A DNA stretch of 64,000 nt from Promethearchaeota archaeon (GTDB lineage Archaea > Asgardarchaeota > Lokiarchaeia > Sigyniarchaeales > SOKP01), in contig JAUVXW010000001.1 of NCBI GenBank assembly GCA_030603385.1, positions 160,001-224,000 of the forward strand, written 5' to 3'. Within the stretch, counting starts at the first letter, position 1. Each line of letters opens with the position of its first letter. Shown here piece after piece: positions 2-64,000 of the stretch. The notes beneath the pieces were generated by a model. That model was not told the DNA's origin. It saw only the letters and a program-made list of their open reading frames with translations, and did no database searches. The position numbers and the translations under genes were made by a program.

Positions 2-679
2 GTAAAAATTGTAAAAGAAATTTGTGAAAAGTTCCCAGCTCTTCAAGGAAAGCGACTTTTGCCGATCCTTCAAAAAGAAAGTCCCGGATTTATTGTAAAT
101 CGCTTGACGATTACGACTGGTCTTTATTTAATCTGGCTTCTTGAATATTCGAGGGAAAAAGGCATACCTTTGGAAAATGTAGATGCAGATGCTGAATCTC
201 TAGCTGAAATTGGACCTTTTGCTAAAATGGATTATTTCGGACTTGATACTACTTATAATGTTATGAGTTATTTCGCAGAAGTGCTTTCTCCAGAATTTTC
301 TCCAGGAAAAACAATAAGTAATTTAGTAAATAACGGTCATCTTGGAAAAAAAACGGGAAAAGGACTTTTCGACTGGAAAGACGGGAAACTCAATATTTCA
401 AAAACTGAAAAAGCAGGACTTTTTAATGTAGAGCTATTTATGGCAATCCAATTAAATGAAGGCTGTAGACTCTTAGAAGATAAAATTGTTTCTGGTTATA
501 AAATAATTGATGACACTATGATGGCAGGAATGAACCTACCAGGACCTTTTGGACCTGGAAAAAGAAGTTATGAGAAATGGACAAGATTATTGGAAGACTT
601 TGTAGAAAACTCAGGTATTAAGTATTTGAAACCGTGTAAACTAATGAAATCTGGTGATTTTGTTAATATGAGAAAATAA
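2..679 (+). CDS. 3-hydroxyacyl-CoA dehydrogenase, C-terminal part (5' end lies before the window)
   Basis: KESPGFIVNRL, GPFAKMDYFGLD and GHLGKKTGKGLF are 3HCDH C-terminal motifs; frame is open from base 2. Confidence 0.85.
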   Translation, partial: VKIVKEICEKFPALQGKRLLPILQKESPGFIVNRLTITTGLYLIWLLEYSREKGIPLENVDADAESLAEIGPFAKMDYFGLDTTYNVMSYFAEVLSPEFSPGKTISNLVNNGHLGKKTGKGLFDWKDGKLNISKTEKAGLFNVELFMAIQLNEGCRLLEDKIVSGYKIIDDTMMAGMNLPGPFGPGKRSYEKWTRLLEDFVENSGIKYLKPCKLMKSGDFVNMRK

Positions 680-54773: not shown

Positions 54774-54940
54774 TATTAATTATTTAAATTATAACCAAAA
54801 ATTAAACTCTTTTAAACTTCAATTGAAATTCTCGCTGAAAATGATAAAATTTTTATTTTTAAATAAAACCACTTAGTATTTTCTTCTAATAGGTTCAACT
54901 CATATTTATTAAAAAACTCTGAAGGTGATTTCTTTATCTA

Positions 54941-55963
54941 TTATAACGTGTGATTATTTCTTTTCTTTTTTAATGTTCTATACACAGTACCTATTATTAA
55001 AATAAATAATGAACTAACTAGGAGTCCAATGTCATATCCTGGAATCTTTACGCTACTCGTATTTCGCTCTGGACATTCTATTAATGGATAATTATCTTGA
55101 TTTCCTGCAGAGCCAGAAATATTATAGGGAATATCCCCAATACCATCATCATCCACATCATTGTAAGGATAATCATCCCAATAATTTCCTATAATTCCAT
55201 TATCCCAATAATTGTTAATACCATCATCTAATGCATTAGAAGTATTATTAAGACAATTTAAGTATACCTGATTATTCGAAGTATTAGAATATAAAGCGAT
55301 CCCATAATTTCCATTATCCTTGATAATATTCTCCGAAATGACATTATTCTCACAACCAGGATGCAAACATATTCCAACATCTAGGTTACCTGACACAATA
55401 TTGTGTGAAATTGTATTATTACGAGTGTGACCACCCGAAGCATCTAATATTATTCCAAAAACTAATCCGTTTGAAGCATTATTATTTGAAATTATATTGT
55501 AGCTTGAATTTCCCATATATATTAATGCTCCTGTATTTACTGCCATACTATTCTCCGTTATTTTACCATTAGAAACATTCCCTAGTACAATTCCTGGATA
55601 TCCAGATGATATGAAATGGCAATCTTTTATTATAAAATACTTCATAGAATTGCTAATAATTAAGGGGATGGTAGGAATGCTGGGAATATTGAAGATATGA
55701 TTCTTTATAATAAATGGATTACTTGATGTTCCAGATCCAGTACAATAACCTTGATCTTTTGCCCAGCTCCAATTTGTAAGGCTCCCAGGAAGGTCGTTTA
55801 TCCATATTGGAGTATCATATATTGTAGAAATTTGTGGAATATCTTTTCTAGAAATTTCCTCAGATTTATGATGTATAATGTATGGAATGCTGAAATAGAG
55901 AGGAGGTATAAACAAAGTCACTATTAGTGAATAAACTAAGAATCTTTTTGCATTTATTTTCAT
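54941..55963 (-). CDS. secreted/surface beta-helix (NosD/CASH-like) protein with a Loki-CTERM/PGF-CTERM-like anchor
   Basis: N-terminal TM; GSGTSSNPFII; Asn-rich repeats; GNYWDDY; DNYPL; IPGY + TM + basic tail. Confidence 0.8.
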   Translation of the reverse strand: MKINAKRFLVYSLIVTLFIPPLYFSIPYIIHHKSEEISRKDIPQISTIYDTPIWINDLPGSLTNWSWAKDQGYCTGSGTSSNPFIIKNHIFNIPSIPTIPLIISNSMKYFIIKDCHFISSGYPGIVLGNVSNGKITENSMAVNTGALIYMGNSSYNIISNNNASNGLVFGIILDASGGHTRNNTISHNIVSGNLDVGICLHPGCENNVISENIIKDNGNYGIALYSNTSNNQVYLNCLNNTSNALDDGINNYWDNGIIGNYWDDYPYNDVDDDGIGDIPYNISGSAGNQDNYPLIECPERNTSSVKIPGYDIGLLVSSLFILIIGTVYRTLKKKRNNHTL

Positions 55964-56216
55964 TAATCTAAACCGATTTAAGTCTTAAATTTTATTTGGA
56001 TTATAGTTTAATCAAATGATTTTATTTATTAATATTCCTATTATTAACTTTTTTTGAAATTCTATTTCAATAACTGGTCAGTCTTTTAATAAACTCCTTT
56101 TTTAACGATTTTGAATTCAATTTTTCTATTAACATAGATGCAATCCTAAGGTTCTTCTTTTCCAAAAAACTGTTAATTAGGATTGTTAGAGTTGCATCTA
56201 AATTAGTTTTTTATTA

Positions 56217-56507
56217 ATGTATGATATTACAAATGCTCAAACGTTAAAGCGATTATCTGAGTGGGTTCAACTAGCGAAGAACTATAAAGAGGATGTCCCA
56301 ATTTTATTAGTGGGAAATAAAATTGATTTGGAACAGAAAAGAGAAGTCTCTAAAGAGCAAATTGAAAGATTTAAAGTAAATAACAAAATATCAGAATCGA
56401 TGGAGATCTCTCTAGAAACGGGAGAAAATGTGGAAGAGATGTTTTTGAGACTTACAAAAATGCTTCTAAACAAATTAGATGGGAAAAAAAGGAAAAAAAG
56501 GAAATAA
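56217..56507 (+). pseudogene. C-terminal half of a Rab-like GTPase, 5'-truncated
   Basis: YDIT, LVGNKID and EISLETGENVEE present; G1-G3 absent; stops upstream. Confidence 0.7.
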
Positions 56508-56531
56508 TAGAATTCCTTTAGCAATATTAAA

Positions 56532-56735
56532 ATGAGGATATATATTGGATGTTTCAAGGATAATACAAGGAAATCTTGTTTTATAAGAATAGAAACTCAA
56601 AAATATATAAGATACATTAACTTTTACGATAAAACCAAATTATGGGATATAAAAAAATACAGAGATGGTAAGGAAACTATAGAGAAAAAAGGAACCAAAT
56701 GGATAAATATAAGGAAGGTAAATATAAGGAGTTGA
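56532..56735 (+). CDS. small basic hypothetical protein
   Basis: 67-aa ORF only. Confidence 0.3.
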   Translation: MRIYIGCFKDNTRKSCFIRIETQKYIRYINFYDKTKLWDIKKYRDGKETIEKKGTKWINIRKVNIRS

Positions 56736-56824
56736 ATAAATAAATGAGTGAATTAAGAGAGAAAGTTTTAAGACAAAATGCAATTATAAAACCTTTTTAA
56801 GAAAAGAGCAGGAAGTGAGTAAAA

Positions 56825-57433
56825 TTGGATGATAAAATCAAGAAATTATTGAATTCTGTGAGAGAACTTGGAGATAAGTTAAGAAATGAATCTTTAAAAA
56901 AAAGAGAGAGATTGAAACTCGAAAGGGAATGGAAATTAAAAGATCAGGAGTTAATGAATTATACGAGAAAACTTGAAATGAAAATGAGGGAATCAGAAAT
57001 GGATAGGAGAACTGAAGAGATAAAGAGACTTAGGGAAGAATATAAAAAAATAATGAAAATATCATATAATTCACATCCTAATATAGATCACAGTTGGAAT
57101 CCTTTAAGAATACAACGTACAATTGAAGAAGTATATAAGAAAGCTCAAGAAAAAGAGTTGGATAAAAACAACTTAATGAAAGAGAGTCCTATGATAAAAG
57201 TAAAAGATGAAAAATTTAAAAGATGGCTATTGCGTTATCGATTTAAGGAATTAGCAAAAATAACTCCTGATCCGAAGGCAGTTAGAACTATGCTTTTGGC
57301 TTTTAAAGATTGGGATGAAGGGAAAATTGATATGGAGATGTTAAAAAAAATTTTTGACGAATGTAAAAATCCAAAATTTAATCCTGATGAATTTTTGAAA
57401 AAATATCCTATATTTAAACCAAAAAAGAAATAG
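56825..57433 (+). CDS. hypothetical coiled-coil protein
   Basis: K/E/R-rich 202-aa ORF whose stop overlaps the next start. Confidence 0.55.
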   Translation: MDDKIKKLLNSVRELGDKLRNESLKKRERLKLEREWKLKDQELMNYTRKLEMKMRESEMDRRTEEIKRLREEYKKIMKISYNSHPNIDHSWNPLRIQRTIEEVYKKAQEKELDKNNLMKESPMIKVKDEKFKRWLLRYRFKELAKITPDPKAVRTMLLAFKDWDEGKIDMEMLKKIFDECKNPKFNPDEFLKKYPIFKPKKK

Positions 57434-59685
57434 TGAGTTCAGAATCGCAAAAGCAAAGCCATTCAACTGAAGAAGCTGATAATAAAAGCGAAAGTGAAAC
57501 GGTTTCAAAGAATACGTTAGATTTAAGAGAAAAATACAGGCAAAAAACAGGGAAGAGACCGATTTACAATAAAAAGGAGACTAAAGGTTTTCTCTCGTGG
57601 TTAGAAAGACAAAAGAAATTAGCCCTAAAAATGAAACAAGAAAAGAAGGAAGAACAAATCGGGGAAACAAAGGAAGCGTGGCAAATCCTCTTAGAAAAAT
57701 GGGTATGGGAAGCTAACGGATCTAAAATCTCAAAAGAAGTTAATGAAGAGCTTATAGATATTATTAGGAAATATTAAAAGTTTAGAAATATATATCTGAA
57801 ATTGATTAATTTACTCGAAAAAAGAAATCTAACTAAAGAAGAAGATGAAGCTATTGAAAAATTGTTTAAAAAACTTGAACAAGTAAGTCGAATTCAAGCG
57901 AATATGTTTACAAATCTCAGAGCCTTTCGATCATTATATAATCAATATCATATATGGGACATGAATCGAATTTTAAAAGAGCGTGAATAATTCATAAAAC
58001 ACCTTAATCAGAAGTTACAGAATCTTAAAATTGATGAAGCGACCCCGCAAGTTGTTAAAAAATATTGGAAGGAGATTTTAAAAGAAAATTTACATAAAAT
58101 AACAACTTTAAGTTTGAATCAAAAATCACAAATTGTTAAGATCATCCAAAAAGATACATTAAATGAAGAAGACAAGAGAGAATTCGTCTCAGTTCTAAAA
58201 AAACTTCCAATAGAGGATTTGATTTCGTTATTAGGAAAGGATTTTGAAAAACACTCAAAAAATTATGTAAAATGGGATTGGGACTTCTATGAATATATTA
58301 AAAAAGATATGCTTACTTCTTACATAAAGAAAAATGAATCAATTTTGTTTTTAGAAAAAAATGTTTCTGTAGAAACACAGAATGACAAACGCACGGATTA
58401 TTCTACCCTTCAATTTATTGATAATCTTATTAGGGAAATCACAAATATTGCTCCTTCAGACTTAGTCAGGATTAGTGGTAAGAGTGCTGGTAAGATTTCG
58501 TTAACTTGGGTCAGTAAAAATATATTTAAGAGACCTGGTGGCTATTTATCAAAAGTTCGCCAGTGGATTTTAAATCCTAACAATGATAATTATAATCCAG
58601 AATTTAAATTCGCTTTATCTGATTTAGATACTGTGATGGAAAGCTTAAAGTATTATGCTAGAGAGTGGCGAGAATCTATTAAGGAGTGTTGTGTAATTTT
58701 TGATTTATATTCTCTTTTAAATAACTTAAAACAAGTTCCTAATCAACAATTTCATATTTATAACCCAAATCTCAACTTTAGGTTCTTTAGTAATATTAAC
58801 GATAGAGTCAATAGTAAAAAAACCAACTATTGGCTTGGGTTTTTATGTGCAGATGGCTATACCCAAAAGGGATATTCATTAGGTATAACTTTATCACGTA
58901 AAGATCGAGATCAATTAATTAGATTTTGTCAGGATATAGGTTTAAATCCTTCACAAAAGGTAAAGAATTTTGAGAGGGAACTCAATGGAAAAATATACGA
59001 ACAATCAAGAGTGACATTTGGTTGCAAGCCTATGATTATTAATCTCTTAGAATTAAATTATAAGGAAGTTCCAGAGTTTATTAAAATTTCTAGGGACGCT
59101 TCAAATGATTCAGATGCATTAGCTTGGTTATTTGGATTATATGACGGTGATGGTCAACAAGGAAAGACTTCAATTTACTCTACTAAACGTCAACTTTTAG
59201 AACAAATCAGAACTAGTTTTAACGTTCCTAATGAAGTGTATAAAGCTAAAGATCCAAGAATAGAGTTAGATGTCTACGGATATCCTAAACTTGACTCACA
59301 TGGTGACCCTGTATTAACTAAGACTCTTTATGTTTTACGCTTGGGTCCAAGTTTATTTAATAAAATTATGGATAATTATAGAGATAGTATGCCAAGAAAG
59401 AGGAAATACTTTGATGAAAGAATAGATGCTGCAATAAAATTAAAAAGATTATTCAGTAATAAAAGAGAACTTCTTCAAGGCTTAGTGGACCAGCTTCCAA
59501 CCACTCAAATCTTGTTAATATTACAAAAAACCATTGGTGTATCTCGAAACGCGTTATATAATTTGATAGTTGAATGGAATATTGTTCTTCCTCCTGTTGG
59601 ATATTGGAATACTAAAGAGGGGAAGAGTAAAAAACAGTTCCCTCAGTGGTTTATTGATACCGTGGGTTATATTGGTGAAATATAG
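57433..59685 (+). pseudogene. large LAGLIDADG endonuclease-domain gene interrupted by two in-frame TAA codons
   Basis: ORFs at 57433, 57802 and 58114 share one frame with only TAA 57775-57777 and 57988-57990 between them; motifs YWLGFLCADG and WLFGLYDGDG. Confidence 0.75.
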
Positions 59686-59885
59686 CTAAAATTATAAATT
59701 TGAAAATCACAAATTTTTTATCTTTTGGTGTATTTTTTTTCTTACAGTGAAAAGCTTGTCACCTTTTTTCTTTAAAAATTGTCTTATTAAAATTATAAGA
59801 GGATGTTTTCTTCCATGAAGGATCCTTTTGTTCTTAAAAAAAATAACGCTTATAGAGGTATTTTAAATATGGAGGTATGTAGTTC

Positions 59886-62873
59886 ATGAGCTATACGTTC
59901 TCACGCACTAAAATGATAGAAAAAATCAAGTTTGGTTTGCTTAGTCCAGATGAAATTCGTAAGATGTCTGCTGCCCGAATTATTACGGCTGACACTTATG
60001 ATGAGGACGGACTCTGAATTTTATTTCGGAATTCAGACGTAATTCCCATCCCATCTGGCTTAATGGACCAACGGCTCGGAACGATTGAGCCTGGTCAAAG
60101 ATGTCAGACATGTGGTAATTTAGTTTCAAATTGTATGGGTCATTTTGGCCATATAGAATTAGCACGTCCCGTTATTCATGTAGGATACTCAAAGAAAGTT
60201 TTAAAAGTGTTACGCAGTATCTGTCCGGATTGCTCTCGTTTAATGCTAACTGAAGAGGAAAAAGAGGAATTCAGACAAGAGCAAATAAAACATAGAAAGA
60301 TTTTTTTCGAGGGGGATGAAGAAGCTTCGAAACTCGTATTTAAACGTGCCAGAAAAGCTAAAAATTGTCCTTATTGCGGTACTAAGAAGAAAAAAATTAT
60401 TATTGAGAAACCTACCACATTTTATGAAGAAGAAGAAGGAAAAGGTTCCCGCAGAATAACACCTATAGAGATTCTAGAACGTCTTAAGAAGATGAGTGAT
60501 GTTGATCTTAGAATCTTAGGTATTTCCCCTGAAAATGCTAGACTTGAGTGGGTAATTTTTACCGTGCTCCCTATCCCCCCTGTATGTGCAAGACCATCAA
60601 TTACTTTAGATAGTGGTATCCGTTCTGAAGATGATCTAACACATAAATTAGTAGATGTTATACGAATTAATCAAAGATTAAGAGAAAATATTGATGCAGG
60701 AGCACCTCATTTAATTGTAGAAGATCTTTGGGAATTATTACAATATCATATTACCACATATTTTGATAATCAAGTTTCTGGGATACCACCTGCAAGACAT
60801 CGTTCTGGAAGAGCCCTTAGAACCCTAACTCAAAGATTAAAAGGTAAAGAGGGTAGATTTAGAAGTAATTTAAGTGGCAAAAGAGTGGATTTTTCTGCGA
60901 GAAGTGTAATTTCGCCTAATCCATATATAAGTATAAATGAAGTAGGTGTACCTATAGAGATAGCGAAAATTTTAACTATCCCCACTAATGTTAATGATTG
61001 GAATATTGAAGAAATGAAACAAATGGTCCTAAATGGACCTGTTCATCATCCTGGAGCTAATTACATCATACGGAGTGATCGTAGAAGAATTGACCTACGT
61101 TATGTTAAAAATAGAAAAATTATTGCAGATATGTTAGCACCAGGATTCACTGTTGAGCGTCATTTGGATGATGGAGACTTAGTATTATTTAATCGTCAAC
61201 CATCGCTCCATAGAATGTCGATAATGGCACATGAAGTAAAAATCATGGAAGGGCGAACTTTTAGATTAAATTTAACTGTATGCCCTCCTTATAACGCTGA
61301 TTTCGATGGAGATGAAATGAATTTACATGTACCTCAAAGTGAAGAGGCTCGAACAGAAGCAGAATTGCTTCTTAAAGTACAAAACCACATATTGTCACCC
61401 CGTTTTGGAGGTCCAATTTTAGGAGGAATTCAAGATTTTATTTCAAGTGTTTTTCAATTTACGAGTAAAAACTCTCTATACAATAAAAAAGAGGCATTAA
61501 ACTTATTTTATATTGGAGGGATATTTGAAGATAAACCTGATTTTAGTTTAGAACAATTAACTCCTATAACAACTGATCCAGAACCTTTATATTCTGGTAA
61601 AGATATATTCAGTAGCTTATTTCCTGATGATTTAAACTTAAAAGTTAAATCAAAATTTTGTAAAAAATGTGACGTATGTGAAGAAGAAAACTGCGCTTAT
61701 GATGCTTATGTTGTAATTAAAAATGGAAGGCTAATAACTGGAACAATAGATGAAAATTCCTTCGGTGCTATGCAACCAAATAGTATCTTGGCGCGAATTA
61801 TTAAGGATCATGGAAATGCGCGTGGTAGACAGTTTTTAGATAGCGCTACTAAACTGTTGCTGGGCGTTATTCGGAAAAATGGTATGACAATGGGATTGGA
61901 TGAGGTTTATGTACATGGTCATGCATATGATGTAATTGAAAAAATATTAAAGGACGGAAATGAAGAGTCTAACAAACTAATAAAAGCCTTTCGTGAAAAT
62001 GATACTACTATTCTTAAAAGAGCACCTGGCCGTTCTATGAGAGAAACTTTGGAATTGAGAATACGCGGGGCATTGGCAGAGGCCCAAAAAGAAGCAATAG
62101 AATCAGCAGCTGATTTCATAGGAGATGAAGCACACTCAGTTATTATGACTAAATCTGGAGCAAGAGGAAATTTATTAAACTTAGGAATGATGTCTGCTGT
62201 TGTGGGACAACAAGCTATAAGAGGTGAAAGAATTAACAGAGGTTATGTAGGGAGTAGGAGAACATTACCTCATTTTAAAGTTGACGACCTTTCACCAAAA
62301 TCTAGAGGTTTTGTATCTTCATCTTATCGAAATGGGTTAAAACCTGTAGAATTCTTCTTTCATGCAATGGGTGGGAGAGAAGGACTCGTTGATACAGCAG
62401 TAAGAACATCTCAGAGTGGATATATGCAGAGAAGATTAGTAAATGCATTACAAGATATGGTTGTAGAAAATGACGGAACTGTTAGAAATTCTGACAAGAA
62501 CATAATTCAGTTTAAATTTGGCGACGATGGTATAGATGCAATGCATACTGATCATGGTTCAGCAGTAAATTTGGATGTGTTATTATTAAAAGCAAAAGCT
62601 CTTGATGTAGGAGAGATTCGTGAAGAAATTAAGCAAGAATCTATCTCTCGAAAAGCTACTTCTAAAGCAAAAAAAGCTATTGATGTGAAACCTAAGGAAA
62701 AGGCTCCTCCAAAAGAAAAGCCCAAAAAAGAAATAAAACCTAAAAAAAAAGAAAAGGTTCATGATGAAGATACATCGATAAAGCAATTTGAAGACGAAAC
62801 TGGAAAGAAGGCTATTTGGAGAGGGAAAGAAACAAAAGCTTATATAGATTGGAAGCAAGAAAAATTAGGATAA
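59886..62873 (+). CDS. rpoA1: DNA-directed RNA polymerase subunit A' (Rpo1N), interrupted by a 30-nt insertion
   Basis: ATG 59886 after GGAGG; [15 protein letters not shown] and DTYDEDG in frame with GLMDQRLG; CxxC Zn sites, [25 protein letters not shown]. Confidence 0.95.
60013..60042 (+). other. candidate bulge-helix-bulge mRNA intron (30 nt) in rpoA1
   Basis: In-frame TGA 60015-60017 within a hairpin; 3-nt bulges ACU and AAU flank an ACGG/ACGU helix; excision restores DGLPIP. Confidence 0.7.

Positions 62874-62925: not shown

Positions 62926-64000
<1,075 letters not shown>

What the first reader, a model, noticed from the sequence alone, without database searches (positions are those of the whole stretch)
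60000..60050. Candidate BHB-type mRNA intron in the essential RNA polymerase gene rpoA1
Seen: rpoA1 begins at ATG 59886 and reads ...[29 protein letters not shown]. That is ten extra codons, including UGA, in a segment that in archaeal A' subunits is DEDG-x-PI. The insert is a hairpin (UCUGAAUUUU/auuuc/GGAAUUCAGA). With its flanks it forms an outer helix GAUGAGG(60000-06)/UCCCAUC(60044-50) with 6 of 7 pairs, a central helix ACGG(60007-10)/ACGU(60037-40) with 3 pairs plus G.A, and 3-nt bulges ACU(60011-13) and AAU(60041-43). Established: archaeal splicing endonuclease cuts after the 2nd nt of each bulge. Here that removes exactly 60013-60042 (30 nt) and yields GAC GGA CUU CCC AUC = D-G-L-P-I, in frame. 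The archaeal mRNA intron I know is crenarchaeal cbf5; I know of none in an Asgard RNAP gene. Inference: EndA/RtcB-type splicing of an essential mRNA, possibly coupling RNAP supply to splicing activity. Alternatives are ribosomal bypassing (GAC GGA ... GAC GUA around a stop in a stem), readthrough, a split gene restarting at ATG 60063, or an assembly error.
Basis: partly seen in the sequence, partly recalled or inferred. Interest (0 to 1): 0.93.

Follow-up and report, generated by a model that had tools for sequence, protein, structure and literature searches.

The report
tRNA-type mini-intron in Asgard rpoA1
The only gene for the largest RNA polymerase subunit in this Asgard-type archaeon is interrupted by a real 30-base hairpin shaped like a tRNA intron, so its mRNA very probably has to be cut and rejoined before translation, which published work shows for only one archaeal protein gene (cbf5).

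Summary
A 30-nt insert (60013-60042) with an in-frame TGA splits rpoA1. It is real DNA: three independent metagenome contigs and a second species genome (G048) carry it at the same place. About 49 other genomes of the genus lack it, and the alignment gap is exactly the segment that the bulge-helix-bulge (BHB) cutting rule removes, restoring the conserved DEDG-L-PIPSG.

rpoA1 is single-copy. Exon 1 differs between intron-bearing lineages only by synonymous changes. The genome has an alpha/beta pair of EndA genes and one RtcB.

Seven other genomes of the genus carry different small introns at two further rpoA1 sites, and compensatory base changes support the BHB fold there. A motif-free comparison with a relative found similar 30-32-nt inserts in uvrB, a small GTPase and other genes of this genome.

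I conclude it is a BHB intron spliced by EndA and RtcB (confidence about 0.8). No RNA evidence could be obtained. The site-1 BHB is relaxed: it has one G.A pair and lies 4-8 kcal/mol above the minimum-energy fold. The proposed coupling of RNAP supply to splicing has no support.

This scan had already noted such introns in other genes of this genome and in other Asgard genomes.

The parts
59871..59876 (+). Shine-Dalgarno-like GGAGGT, 9 nt upstream of the rpoA1 start codon
   Evidence: Read directly from the sequence. No comparable motif precedes ATG 60063.
59886..60012 (+). rpoA1 exon 1 (42 codons plus the first base of the Leu codon)
   Evidence: Translation. Pfam RNA_pol_Rpb1_1 positions 2-34. 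All differences between intron-bearing lineages are synonymous.
60000..60006 (+). Outer (exon-exon) helix, 5' strand; pairs with 60044-60050
   Evidence: 6 of 7 pairs. These exon bases are invariant in the intron-bearing lineages, but differ at synonymous sites and pair poorly in intron-less relatives.
60007..60010 (+). Central 4-position helix, 5' strand (exon); pairs with 60037-60040
   Evidence: A-U, C-G, G-C plus a G.A mismatch. The elf1 intron of the same genome has the same G.A position.
60011..60013 (+). 5' bulge (ACU); predicted cut between 60012 and 60013
   Evidence: BHB geometry. It coincides with the alignment gap.
60013..60042 (+). 30-nt intron
   Evidence: Absent from all other genus and order genomes aligned here. 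Present in G048 and in metagenome contigs L032, L033 and L034. Single copy in the genome.
60015..60017 (+). In-frame TGA inside the intron
   Evidence: Translation.
60014..60036 (+). Intron hairpin: stem 60014-22 with 60028-36, loop 60023-27
   Evidence: In G048/L032 the two G.U pairs become A-U and one loop base changes.
60037..60040 (+). Central helix, 3' strand (intron)
60041..60043 (+). 3' bulge (AAU); predicted cut between 60042 and 60043
60044..60050 (+). Outer helix, 3' strand (exon 2)
60043..62873 (+). rpoA1 exon 2, through the stop codon
   Evidence: Translation. Pfam Rpb1 domains 1-5. 97% protein identity to G019.
62929..63999 (+). rpoA2 (subunit A''), which runs off the window
   Evidence: Pfam RNA_pol_Rpb1_5 positions 66-265.

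Best explanation
The segment 60013-60042 is an archaeal bulge-helix-bulge (BHB) mini-intron inside the rpoA1 coding sequence. In the pre-mRNA, the end of exon 1 pairs with the 3' part of the intron to form the central helix, and pairs with the start of exon 2 to form the outer helix. The middle of the intron forms a 9-bp hairpin. The heteromeric splicing endonuclease (EndA alpha/beta) cuts after the second base of each 3-nt bulge, at 60012/13 and 60042/43. RtcB then joins the exons, and probably circularises the 30-nt intron. The product reads GAC GGA CUU CCC AUC, that is D-G-L-P-I, which is the sequence every relative encodes without interruption. Shown here: the DNA is real, the geometry fits, the frame and motif are restored exactly, the exons are under selection, the gene is single-copy, the enzymes are encoded, and sister introns show covariation. 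Inferred: the cleavage and ligation themselves. The intron is a recent, lineage-restricted acquisition, not a conserved regulatory device. It lies at the edge of a recombination tract that distinguishes this genome from its nearest intron-less relative.
For: 1) Real DNA. Three independent metagenome contigs and the species genome G048 carry the insert at the same codon.
2) Exact boundaries. The MAFFT gap against relatives equals the segment that the BHB rule removes. The chance of such geometry at fixed boundaries is about 8e-6.
3) Function retained. There is one rpoA1 in the 94%-complete genome. All nine genus genomes with an interrupted rpoA1 have no second full-length copy. The spliced genes of G000 and L032 differ by 251 synonymous and 85 non-synonymous codons, and exon 1 differs only synonymously (alignments).
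4) Structure conserved. At site 1, both stem changes turn G.U into A-U, and the exon halves of the outer and central helices are invariant in intron-bearing lineages.
5) Sister introns. Five genomes have a 30-nt intron after GHFGH. Its pairs are 95.7% standard, five pairs changed on both sides, including an exon-intron pair of the central helix, and slid controls give 26-56%. Four genomes have a 35- or 85-nt frame-shifting intron 5 nt further on.
6) Same genome. A motif-free comparison with 1.6 Mb of G006 found stop-bearing or frame-shifting 30-32-nt inserts in uvrB, a small GTPase and a gene on C26. A fifth insert, in an AMP-phosphorylase-like gene, fits less well.
7) Enzymes. There are two EndA paralogs, one keeping Y-H-K and one lacking the His, and one RtcB. 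Asgard archaea are reported to have the broad-specificity (alpha-beta)2 EndA (PMC5829648).
8) Internal control. tRNA introns of this genome fit the same geometry with 3-4 of 4 central pairs.
Against: No RNA evidence was obtained. The site-1 motif is relaxed. It has a G.A in the central helix, U60013 can pair with A60037 instead of being bulged, and the BHB conformer is 4-8 kcal/mol above the minimum-energy fold, which has a 3x3 internal loop. Site 1 itself shows only one-sided changes, with no double compensatory change. My genome-wide BHB-plus-ORF-rescue scan showed no excess over frame-shifted controls, because adjacent-gene junctions swamp it. One of the homology-detected inserts (AMP-phosphorylase-like, on C10) does not fit the canonical cut rule.
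Confidence: 0.8

Rival explanations
1. Programmed translational bypassing, as in T4 gene 60 or the mitochondrial 'byp' elements. The insert stays in the mRNA and the ribosome hops over the hairpin and its stop codon.
For: A stop codon sits in the 5' arm of a stable hairpin. GAC at 60006-08 is repeated exactly 30 nt downstream at 60036-38. In uvrB, the GTPase and elf1, the codon before the insert is repeated at the end of the insert.
Against: The codon in the P site when the ribosome reaches the TGA is CUC, and no matching landing codon exists. A GAC-to-GAC hop would need take-off without a stop in the A site and would give VI instead of the conserved GL. Site-2 introns and the C26 intron have no matching codons. 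Bypassing does not predict exon-intron covariation in the central helix. It also cannot decode the 5-nt micro-exon of G043 and G062. The codon repeats are explained by both bulges starting with A and having similar second bases.
Confidence: 0.04
2. A broken or decaying gene: a pseudogene, or a split gene that makes a 43-aa peptide plus a 936-aa protein restarting at ATG 60063.
For: ORF tables give two pieces, 59886-60017 and 60063-62873, and a gene caller would annotate the second piece alone.
Against: rpoA1 is essential and single-copy here. Exon 1 keeps a strong SD-like motif and only synonymous differences across three intron-bearing lineages. No SD-like motif precedes 60063. A restart there would drop the conserved LPIPSGL residues. 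The same pattern recurs in nine genomes of the genus, none of which has a second copy.
Confidence: 0.04
3. Stop-codon readthrough or recoding (for example Sec at UGA), giving RpoA1 with a 10-residue insertion.
For: The insert is in frame (30 nt) with a single UGA. An earlier, unchecked note reports Sec codons in hdrA of this genome.
Against: The two differences in the insert between G000 and G048 are both non-synonymous but preserve the structure. Sister inserts carry UAA or UAG, two stops, or shift the frame (31, 32, 35 and 85 nt). About 49 relatives have no insertion here.
Confidence: 0.02
4. An assembly or sequencing artefact.
For: The genome is a 58-contig assembly with about 7% estimated contamination.
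Against: Four further independent assemblies contain the insert, with lineage-specific differences around and within it.
Confidence: 0.01

Closest known systems
BHB intron in the cbf5 pre-mRNA of Crenarchaeota (Watanabe 2002; Yoshinari 2006; Yokobori 2009, PMC2738675)
   Same: It is a short intron inside a protein-coding sequence. It folds into a bulge-helix-bulge built partly from exon sequence. The host has a hetero-oligomeric EndA. Presence and absence vary among related lineages (gain and loss).
   Different: The host lineage is an Asgard, Loki-type genus and the host gene is the essential RNAP subunit A'. It is not a single conserved site: there are three sites within about 45 codons of rpoA1 across the genus, and several unrelated genes of the same genome are interrupted. 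Splicing is not yet shown experimentally here.
Non-canonical BHB introns of archaeal tRNA genes, including the heavily interrupted Asgard tRNA genes (Marck and Grosjean 2003; PMC5829648; preprint 10.64898/2026.10.13.758758)
   Same: Same geometry and the same predicted enzymes. The tRNA introns of this genome fit the same cut rule, with 3-4 of 4 central pairs.
   Different: The substrate is an mRNA, so the exon halves of the motif must also encode protein. Exon synonymous sites appear to be fixed so that they pair.
   Same: Both are short hairpin inserts with stop codons inside otherwise intact coding sequences, sporadic among relatives.
   Different: There are no matched take-off and landing codons at the position that keeps the conserved residues. 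Exon-intron covariation and the exact BHB geometry are not features of bypass elements.

Membership tests
Archaeal BHB intron (EndA/RtcB substrate) | [quoted passage not shown] | tested here: met
   Bulges 60011-13 and 60041-43; central helix 60007-10 with 60037-40. It has 3 standard pairs plus G.A, so it is a relaxed form. The conformer is 4-8 kcal/mol above the minimum-energy fold. tRNA introns of the same genome also have 3 of 4 central pairs.
Archaeal BHB intron (EndA/RtcB substrate) | Flanking helices: an exon-exon outer helix and an intron inner helix | tested here: met
   Outer helix 6 of 7 pairs; inner helix 9 pairs.
Archaeal BHB intron (EndA/RtcB substrate) | Cuts after the second base of each bulge give the functional mature sequence | tested here: met
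   Removing 60013-60042 equals the alignment gap against the relatives aligned and restores DEDG-L-PIPSG in frame. The alternative +1 register has no BHB.
Archaeal BHB intron (EndA/RtcB substrate) | Covariation that maintains the helices | tested here: inconclusive
   Site 1 shows only two one-sided changes (G.U to A-U) among three lineages. The sister site-2 intron shows five pairs changed on both sides.
Archaeal BHB intron (EndA/RtcB substrate) | The host encodes the splicing endonuclease and an RtcB ligase | tested here: met
   Two PF01974/PF02778 proteins (198 and 200 aa, 33% identical, one lacking the catalytic His) and one RtcB.
Archaeal BHB intron (EndA/RtcB substrate) | The intron is absent from mature RNA, or an excised circular intron is present | not testable with these tools
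The single metagenome scan returned only intron-containing contigs.
Programmed translational bypass element | Matching take-off and landing codons, with a stop or hungry codon next to the take-off site | tested here: not met
   The take-off codon before the TGA is CUC, and the triplet before CCC is AUU. The GAC/GAC repeat is not next to a stop and would change the conserved GL to VI.
Self-splicing group I or group II intron | A ribozyme core of hundreds of nucleotides | tested here: not met
   The insert is 30 nt. No relevant Rfam match in 59600-60400.

The most novel reading that the evidence does not exclude
BHB mini-introns may be a dynamic, population-polymorphic class of elements in this Loki-type genus. 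They are gained repeatedly at hot spots of essential mRNAs: rpoA1 has three sites within about 45 codons, and two genomes have two introns separated by a 5-nt micro-exon, which would need ordered splicing. They may pass between lineages by homologous recombination with short co-converted flanks. Here the intron sits at the edge of a donor-like tract next to a 4.8-kb island that carries a LAGLIDADG-like ORF. If so, routine protein-dependent mRNA splicing and intron gain and loss existed in the closest prokaryotic relatives of eukaryotes.
Probability: 0.35. Interest if true: 0.88.

Novelty: new member of a known kind. Interest (0 to 1): 0.74.

Why it matters
In the papers I could search, published archaeal mRNA splicing is limited to one gene, cbf5 of Crenarchaeota. 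Here the catalytic subunit of the only RNA polymerase of an Asgard-type archaeon cannot be translated unless 30 nt are removed. The same holds for uvrB, elf1, a GTPase and other genes in the genome. If splicing is confirmed, the tRNA-splicing machinery does routine, essential mRNA splicing in the closest prokaryotic relatives of eukaryotes. That bears on how intron-tolerant gene expression arose. There is also a practical side: annotation pipelines truncate or split these genes. The presence and absence of the introns among 54 genomes of one genus gives a natural system for studying how such introns are gained and lost.

Tried and rejected
The metagenome scan, which allowed both spliced and unspliced forms, returned only unspliced DNA contigs.
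2) Genome-wide BHB scan with an ORF-rescue criterion and frame-shifted controls. It showed no excess at the true register, because junctions between adjacent genes give thousands of false rescues. I dropped it as a census and replaced it with a motif-free tblastn comparison against 1.6 Mb of relative G006.
3) Other copies of the intron. The 30-nt sequence has no other copy in the genome, so it is not a repeat or a MITE. The introns of different genes share their shape and length (about 30 nt) but not their sequence.
4) Rfam scan of 59600-60400. Nothing relevant.
5) The 45-nt insert on C53 found by the census has no BHB and the identity there is low. I did not count it as an intron.
6) A target-site duplication reading of the short direct repeats at the intron ends. 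I rejected it in favour of similar bulge sequences and palindromic central helices.
7) Literature. I found no paper describing BHB introns in Asgard protein-coding genes; the only examples concern cbf5, tRNA and rRNA.
8) Taxonomy was not verified with a tool. 'Asgard/Loki-type' rests on gene content (elf1, many Ras-like GTPases, split A'/A'' subunits), 31% G+C and earlier notes of this scan.
Full report
OBSERVATION. rpoA1 starts at ATG 59886, behind a GGAGGT motif at 59871-76. It reads into a TGA at 60015-17 and resumes in the same frame up to the stop at 62871-73. Pfam puts the first 42 residues on positions 2-34 of Rpb1 domain 1 and the ORF from 60063 on positions 44-312, so one gene is interrupted. 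The stretch folds well (z = -2.9), but the minimum-energy fold is not the BHB. It pairs 60011-12 with 60039-40 and leaves a 3x3 internal loop. The BHB conformer costs 4-8 kcal/mol more.

IS IT REAL DNA? The genome (3.89 Mb, 58 contigs, 30.8% G+C) has the 30-mer only once and only one rpoA1. I scanned public metagenome contigs with the two exon flanks and a 0-30-nt gap. Three contigs matched, all with the full 30-nt spacing. They are not the same strain. L034 has the identical intron but about ten synonymous differences in exon 1. L032 and L033 match the species genome G048 and differ inside the intron at three bases. An assembly error is therefore excluded.

COMPARATIVE TEST OF THE BOUNDARIES. 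Across the 54 genomes of the genus, 51 matched the region, and only G000 and G048 carry an insert at this codon. The 15 order-level relatives that matched have none in the N-terminal 385 residues. MAFFT places the gap at exactly 60013-60042, and relatives read DEDG-L-PIPSG without interruption. At fixed 30-nt boundaries, geometry of this quality occurs at 8e-6 of positions in this genome.

IS THE GENE STILL USED? The spliced reading of G000 and that of L032 each have a single, terminal stop. They differ by 251 synonymous and 85 non-synonymous codons. Within exon 1, all differences among the three intron-bearing lineages are synonymous. Exon 1 has therefore stayed under protein-level selection since these lineages split. 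That argues against a pseudogene and against a restart at 60063. The exon bases that form the outer and central helices are invariant in the intron-bearing lineages, although synonymous sites vary freely nearby. In intron-less relatives the same codons differ and would pair poorly.

STRUCTURE CONSERVATION. At site 1, the two stem changes in G048/L032 turn G.U pairs into A-U, and the third change lies in the loop. This is consistent with the fold but is not double compensation.

Stronger evidence comes from sister introns in the same gene. G017, G069, G045, G043 and G062 have a 30-nt stop-bearing intron right after GHFGH, inside the zinc-binding motif. On their alignment, 95.7% of cells form standard pairs and five pairs change on both sides. 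One of these is a central-helix pair between a Gly third-codon base in the exon and an intron base. Sliding the partners gives 26-56%. For most of these introns the BHB is the minimum-energy fold or lies within 1.2 kcal/mol of it.

Five bases further downstream, G022 and G058 have an 85-nt intron and G043 and G062 a 35-nt intron, all of which shift the frame. In G043 and G062, only a two-intron reading with a 5-nt micro-exon restores H-I-E-L-A. Each of the nine genomes with an interrupted rpoA1 has only that one full-length copy.

SAME GENOME, OTHER GENES. My BHB-plus-ORF-rescue scan failed as a census, because junctions between neighbouring genes swamp it and there is no excess over shifted controls. 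I replaced it with a motif-free test: ORFs from 1.6 Mb of relative G006 were run by tblastn against G000, and 1,789 ORFs had hits. Besides rpoA1, this recovered:
- a 30-nt stop-bearing insert in the P-loop of a small GTPase (C1);
- a 30-nt insert in the YYDYYQPE|AY motif of uvrB (C4:251907);
- a 30-nt insert in an AMP-phosphorylase-like gene (C10);
- a 32-nt frame-shifting insert in a gene on C26;
- a doubtful 45-nt insert on C53.
With elf1 (31 nt), five of the seven, rpoA1 included, have BHB cut sites exactly at the homology-defined boundaries. The C10 insert is off by 2 nt at its 3' side, and the C53 insert has no BHB. The reciprocal search over the first 0.4 Mb of G006 found no credible G006-specific insert. 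The introns share no sequence, only their shape and a length of about 30 nt. In the six BHB-fitting mRNA introns I compared (twelve bulges), the first base of both bulges is A.

MACHINERY. G000 encodes two EndA-family proteins of 198 and 200 aa. Each has the N- and C-terminal EndA domains, and they are 33% identical. One keeps the Tyr-His-Lys positions and the other lacks the His, as expected for an alpha/beta pair. There is one RtcB. Kaneta et al. 2018 (PMC5829648) report that Asgard archaea have the (alpha-beta)2 EndA with the L1 loop linked to broad substrate specificity. aragorn finds only 18 tRNA genes, 7 of them with introns. Four of those introns fit my BHB geometry function with 3-4 of 4 central pairs and a 6-bp outer helix. 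This validates the cut rule internally and shows that a 3-of-4 central helix is tolerated here.

HISTORY. From about 59630 to 60054, G000 is 90-96% identical to the G048-type contig L032 but only 60-80% identical to G019. From about 60115 onward it is 97-100% identical to G019 and 85-90% identical to L032. A recombination breakpoint therefore lies within about 50-100 nt 3' of the intron. Directly upstream, G000 has a 4.8-kb island (about 54861-59700) that G019 lacks and L034 has in part. Its last ORF gives a weak, below-cut-off LAGLIDADG_3 match. The intron thus arrived in G000, or was lost from G019, together with flanking DNA by recombination. I cannot tell which, and nothing links the LAGLIDADG-like ORF to the intron.

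RIVALS. Bypassing fails for four reasons. There is no landing codon for the CUC take-off. A GAC-to-GAC hop would alter the conserved GL. Exon-intron covariation is not explained. The 5-nt micro-exon could not be decoded. Readthrough or Sec fails because the insert evolves like non-coding structure and the sister inserts carry other stops or shift the frame. The pseudogene and split-gene readings fail on selection and copy number.

KNOWN OR NEW. Six full-text searches found BHB introns in archaeal protein-coding genes only for cbf5 (PMC2738675 and the references cited in PMC5829648). A 2026 preprint on Asgard introns treats tRNA genes only. Earlier notes of this scan had already flagged similar introns in other genes of this genome and in other Asgard genomes. 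I re-tested uvrB and elf1 here. The rpoA1 intron is therefore a new member of a known kind, inside a phenomenon that looks far broader than the published record.

VERDICT. The idea that the intron regulates RNAP supply has no support.

Noticed in passing
L039 (G043) 269-392 minus strand; L040 (G062) 282-405 minus strand: rpoA1 of these two relatives has a 30-nt and a 35-nt intron separated by a 5-nt micro-exon. The central helix of the second intron uses the last base of exon 1, which suggests ordered splicing.
   Followed up: partly
window 54861-59700: A 4.8-kb island directly upstream of rpoA1 is absent from the nearest relative G019 and partly present in metagenome contig L034. Its last ORF (58114-59685, 523 aa) gives a weak LAGLIDADG_3 match (E 4e-4, below the cut-off). 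rpoB is not upstream of rpoA1 here.
   Followed up: partly
window 59630-60115: The locus is mosaic. The promoter, exon 1 and intron resemble G048/L032, while the rest of rpoA1 resembles G019. The breakpoint lies within about 100 nt 3' of the intron.
   Followed up: partly
G000 C4:251907-251936; C1:11438-11467 (minus strand); C26 (32 nt, minus strand); C39:2120-2150; C10:126772-126801: Other protein-coding genes of this genome (uvrB, a small GTPase, a gene on C26, elf1, an AMP-phosphorylase-like gene) carry 30-32-nt stop-bearing or frame-shifting hairpin inserts. Four fit the BHB cut rule exactly. The C10 insert is off by 2 nt at its 3' side.
   Followed up: partly
BHB-fitting mRNA introns examined in G000 and relatives: The first base of both 3-nt bulges is A in 12 of 12 bulges. 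This may be a sequence preference of this lineage's EndA.
   Followed up: no
G000 whole genome: aragorn finds only 18 tRNA genes in 3.9 Mb, 7 of them with introns. Most tRNA genes are probably hidden by non-canonical or multiple introns.
   Followed up: no
G020:C4:52128-54902: rpoA1 of relative G020 has one in-frame TAG somewhere in the 935-residue match. I did not locate it.
   Followed up: no
window 56217-56507: A 96-aa ORF that looks like the C-terminal part of a Ras-like GTPase (LLVGNKIDL motif) lies inside the island. It may be a gene fragment or another interrupted gene.
   Followed up: no
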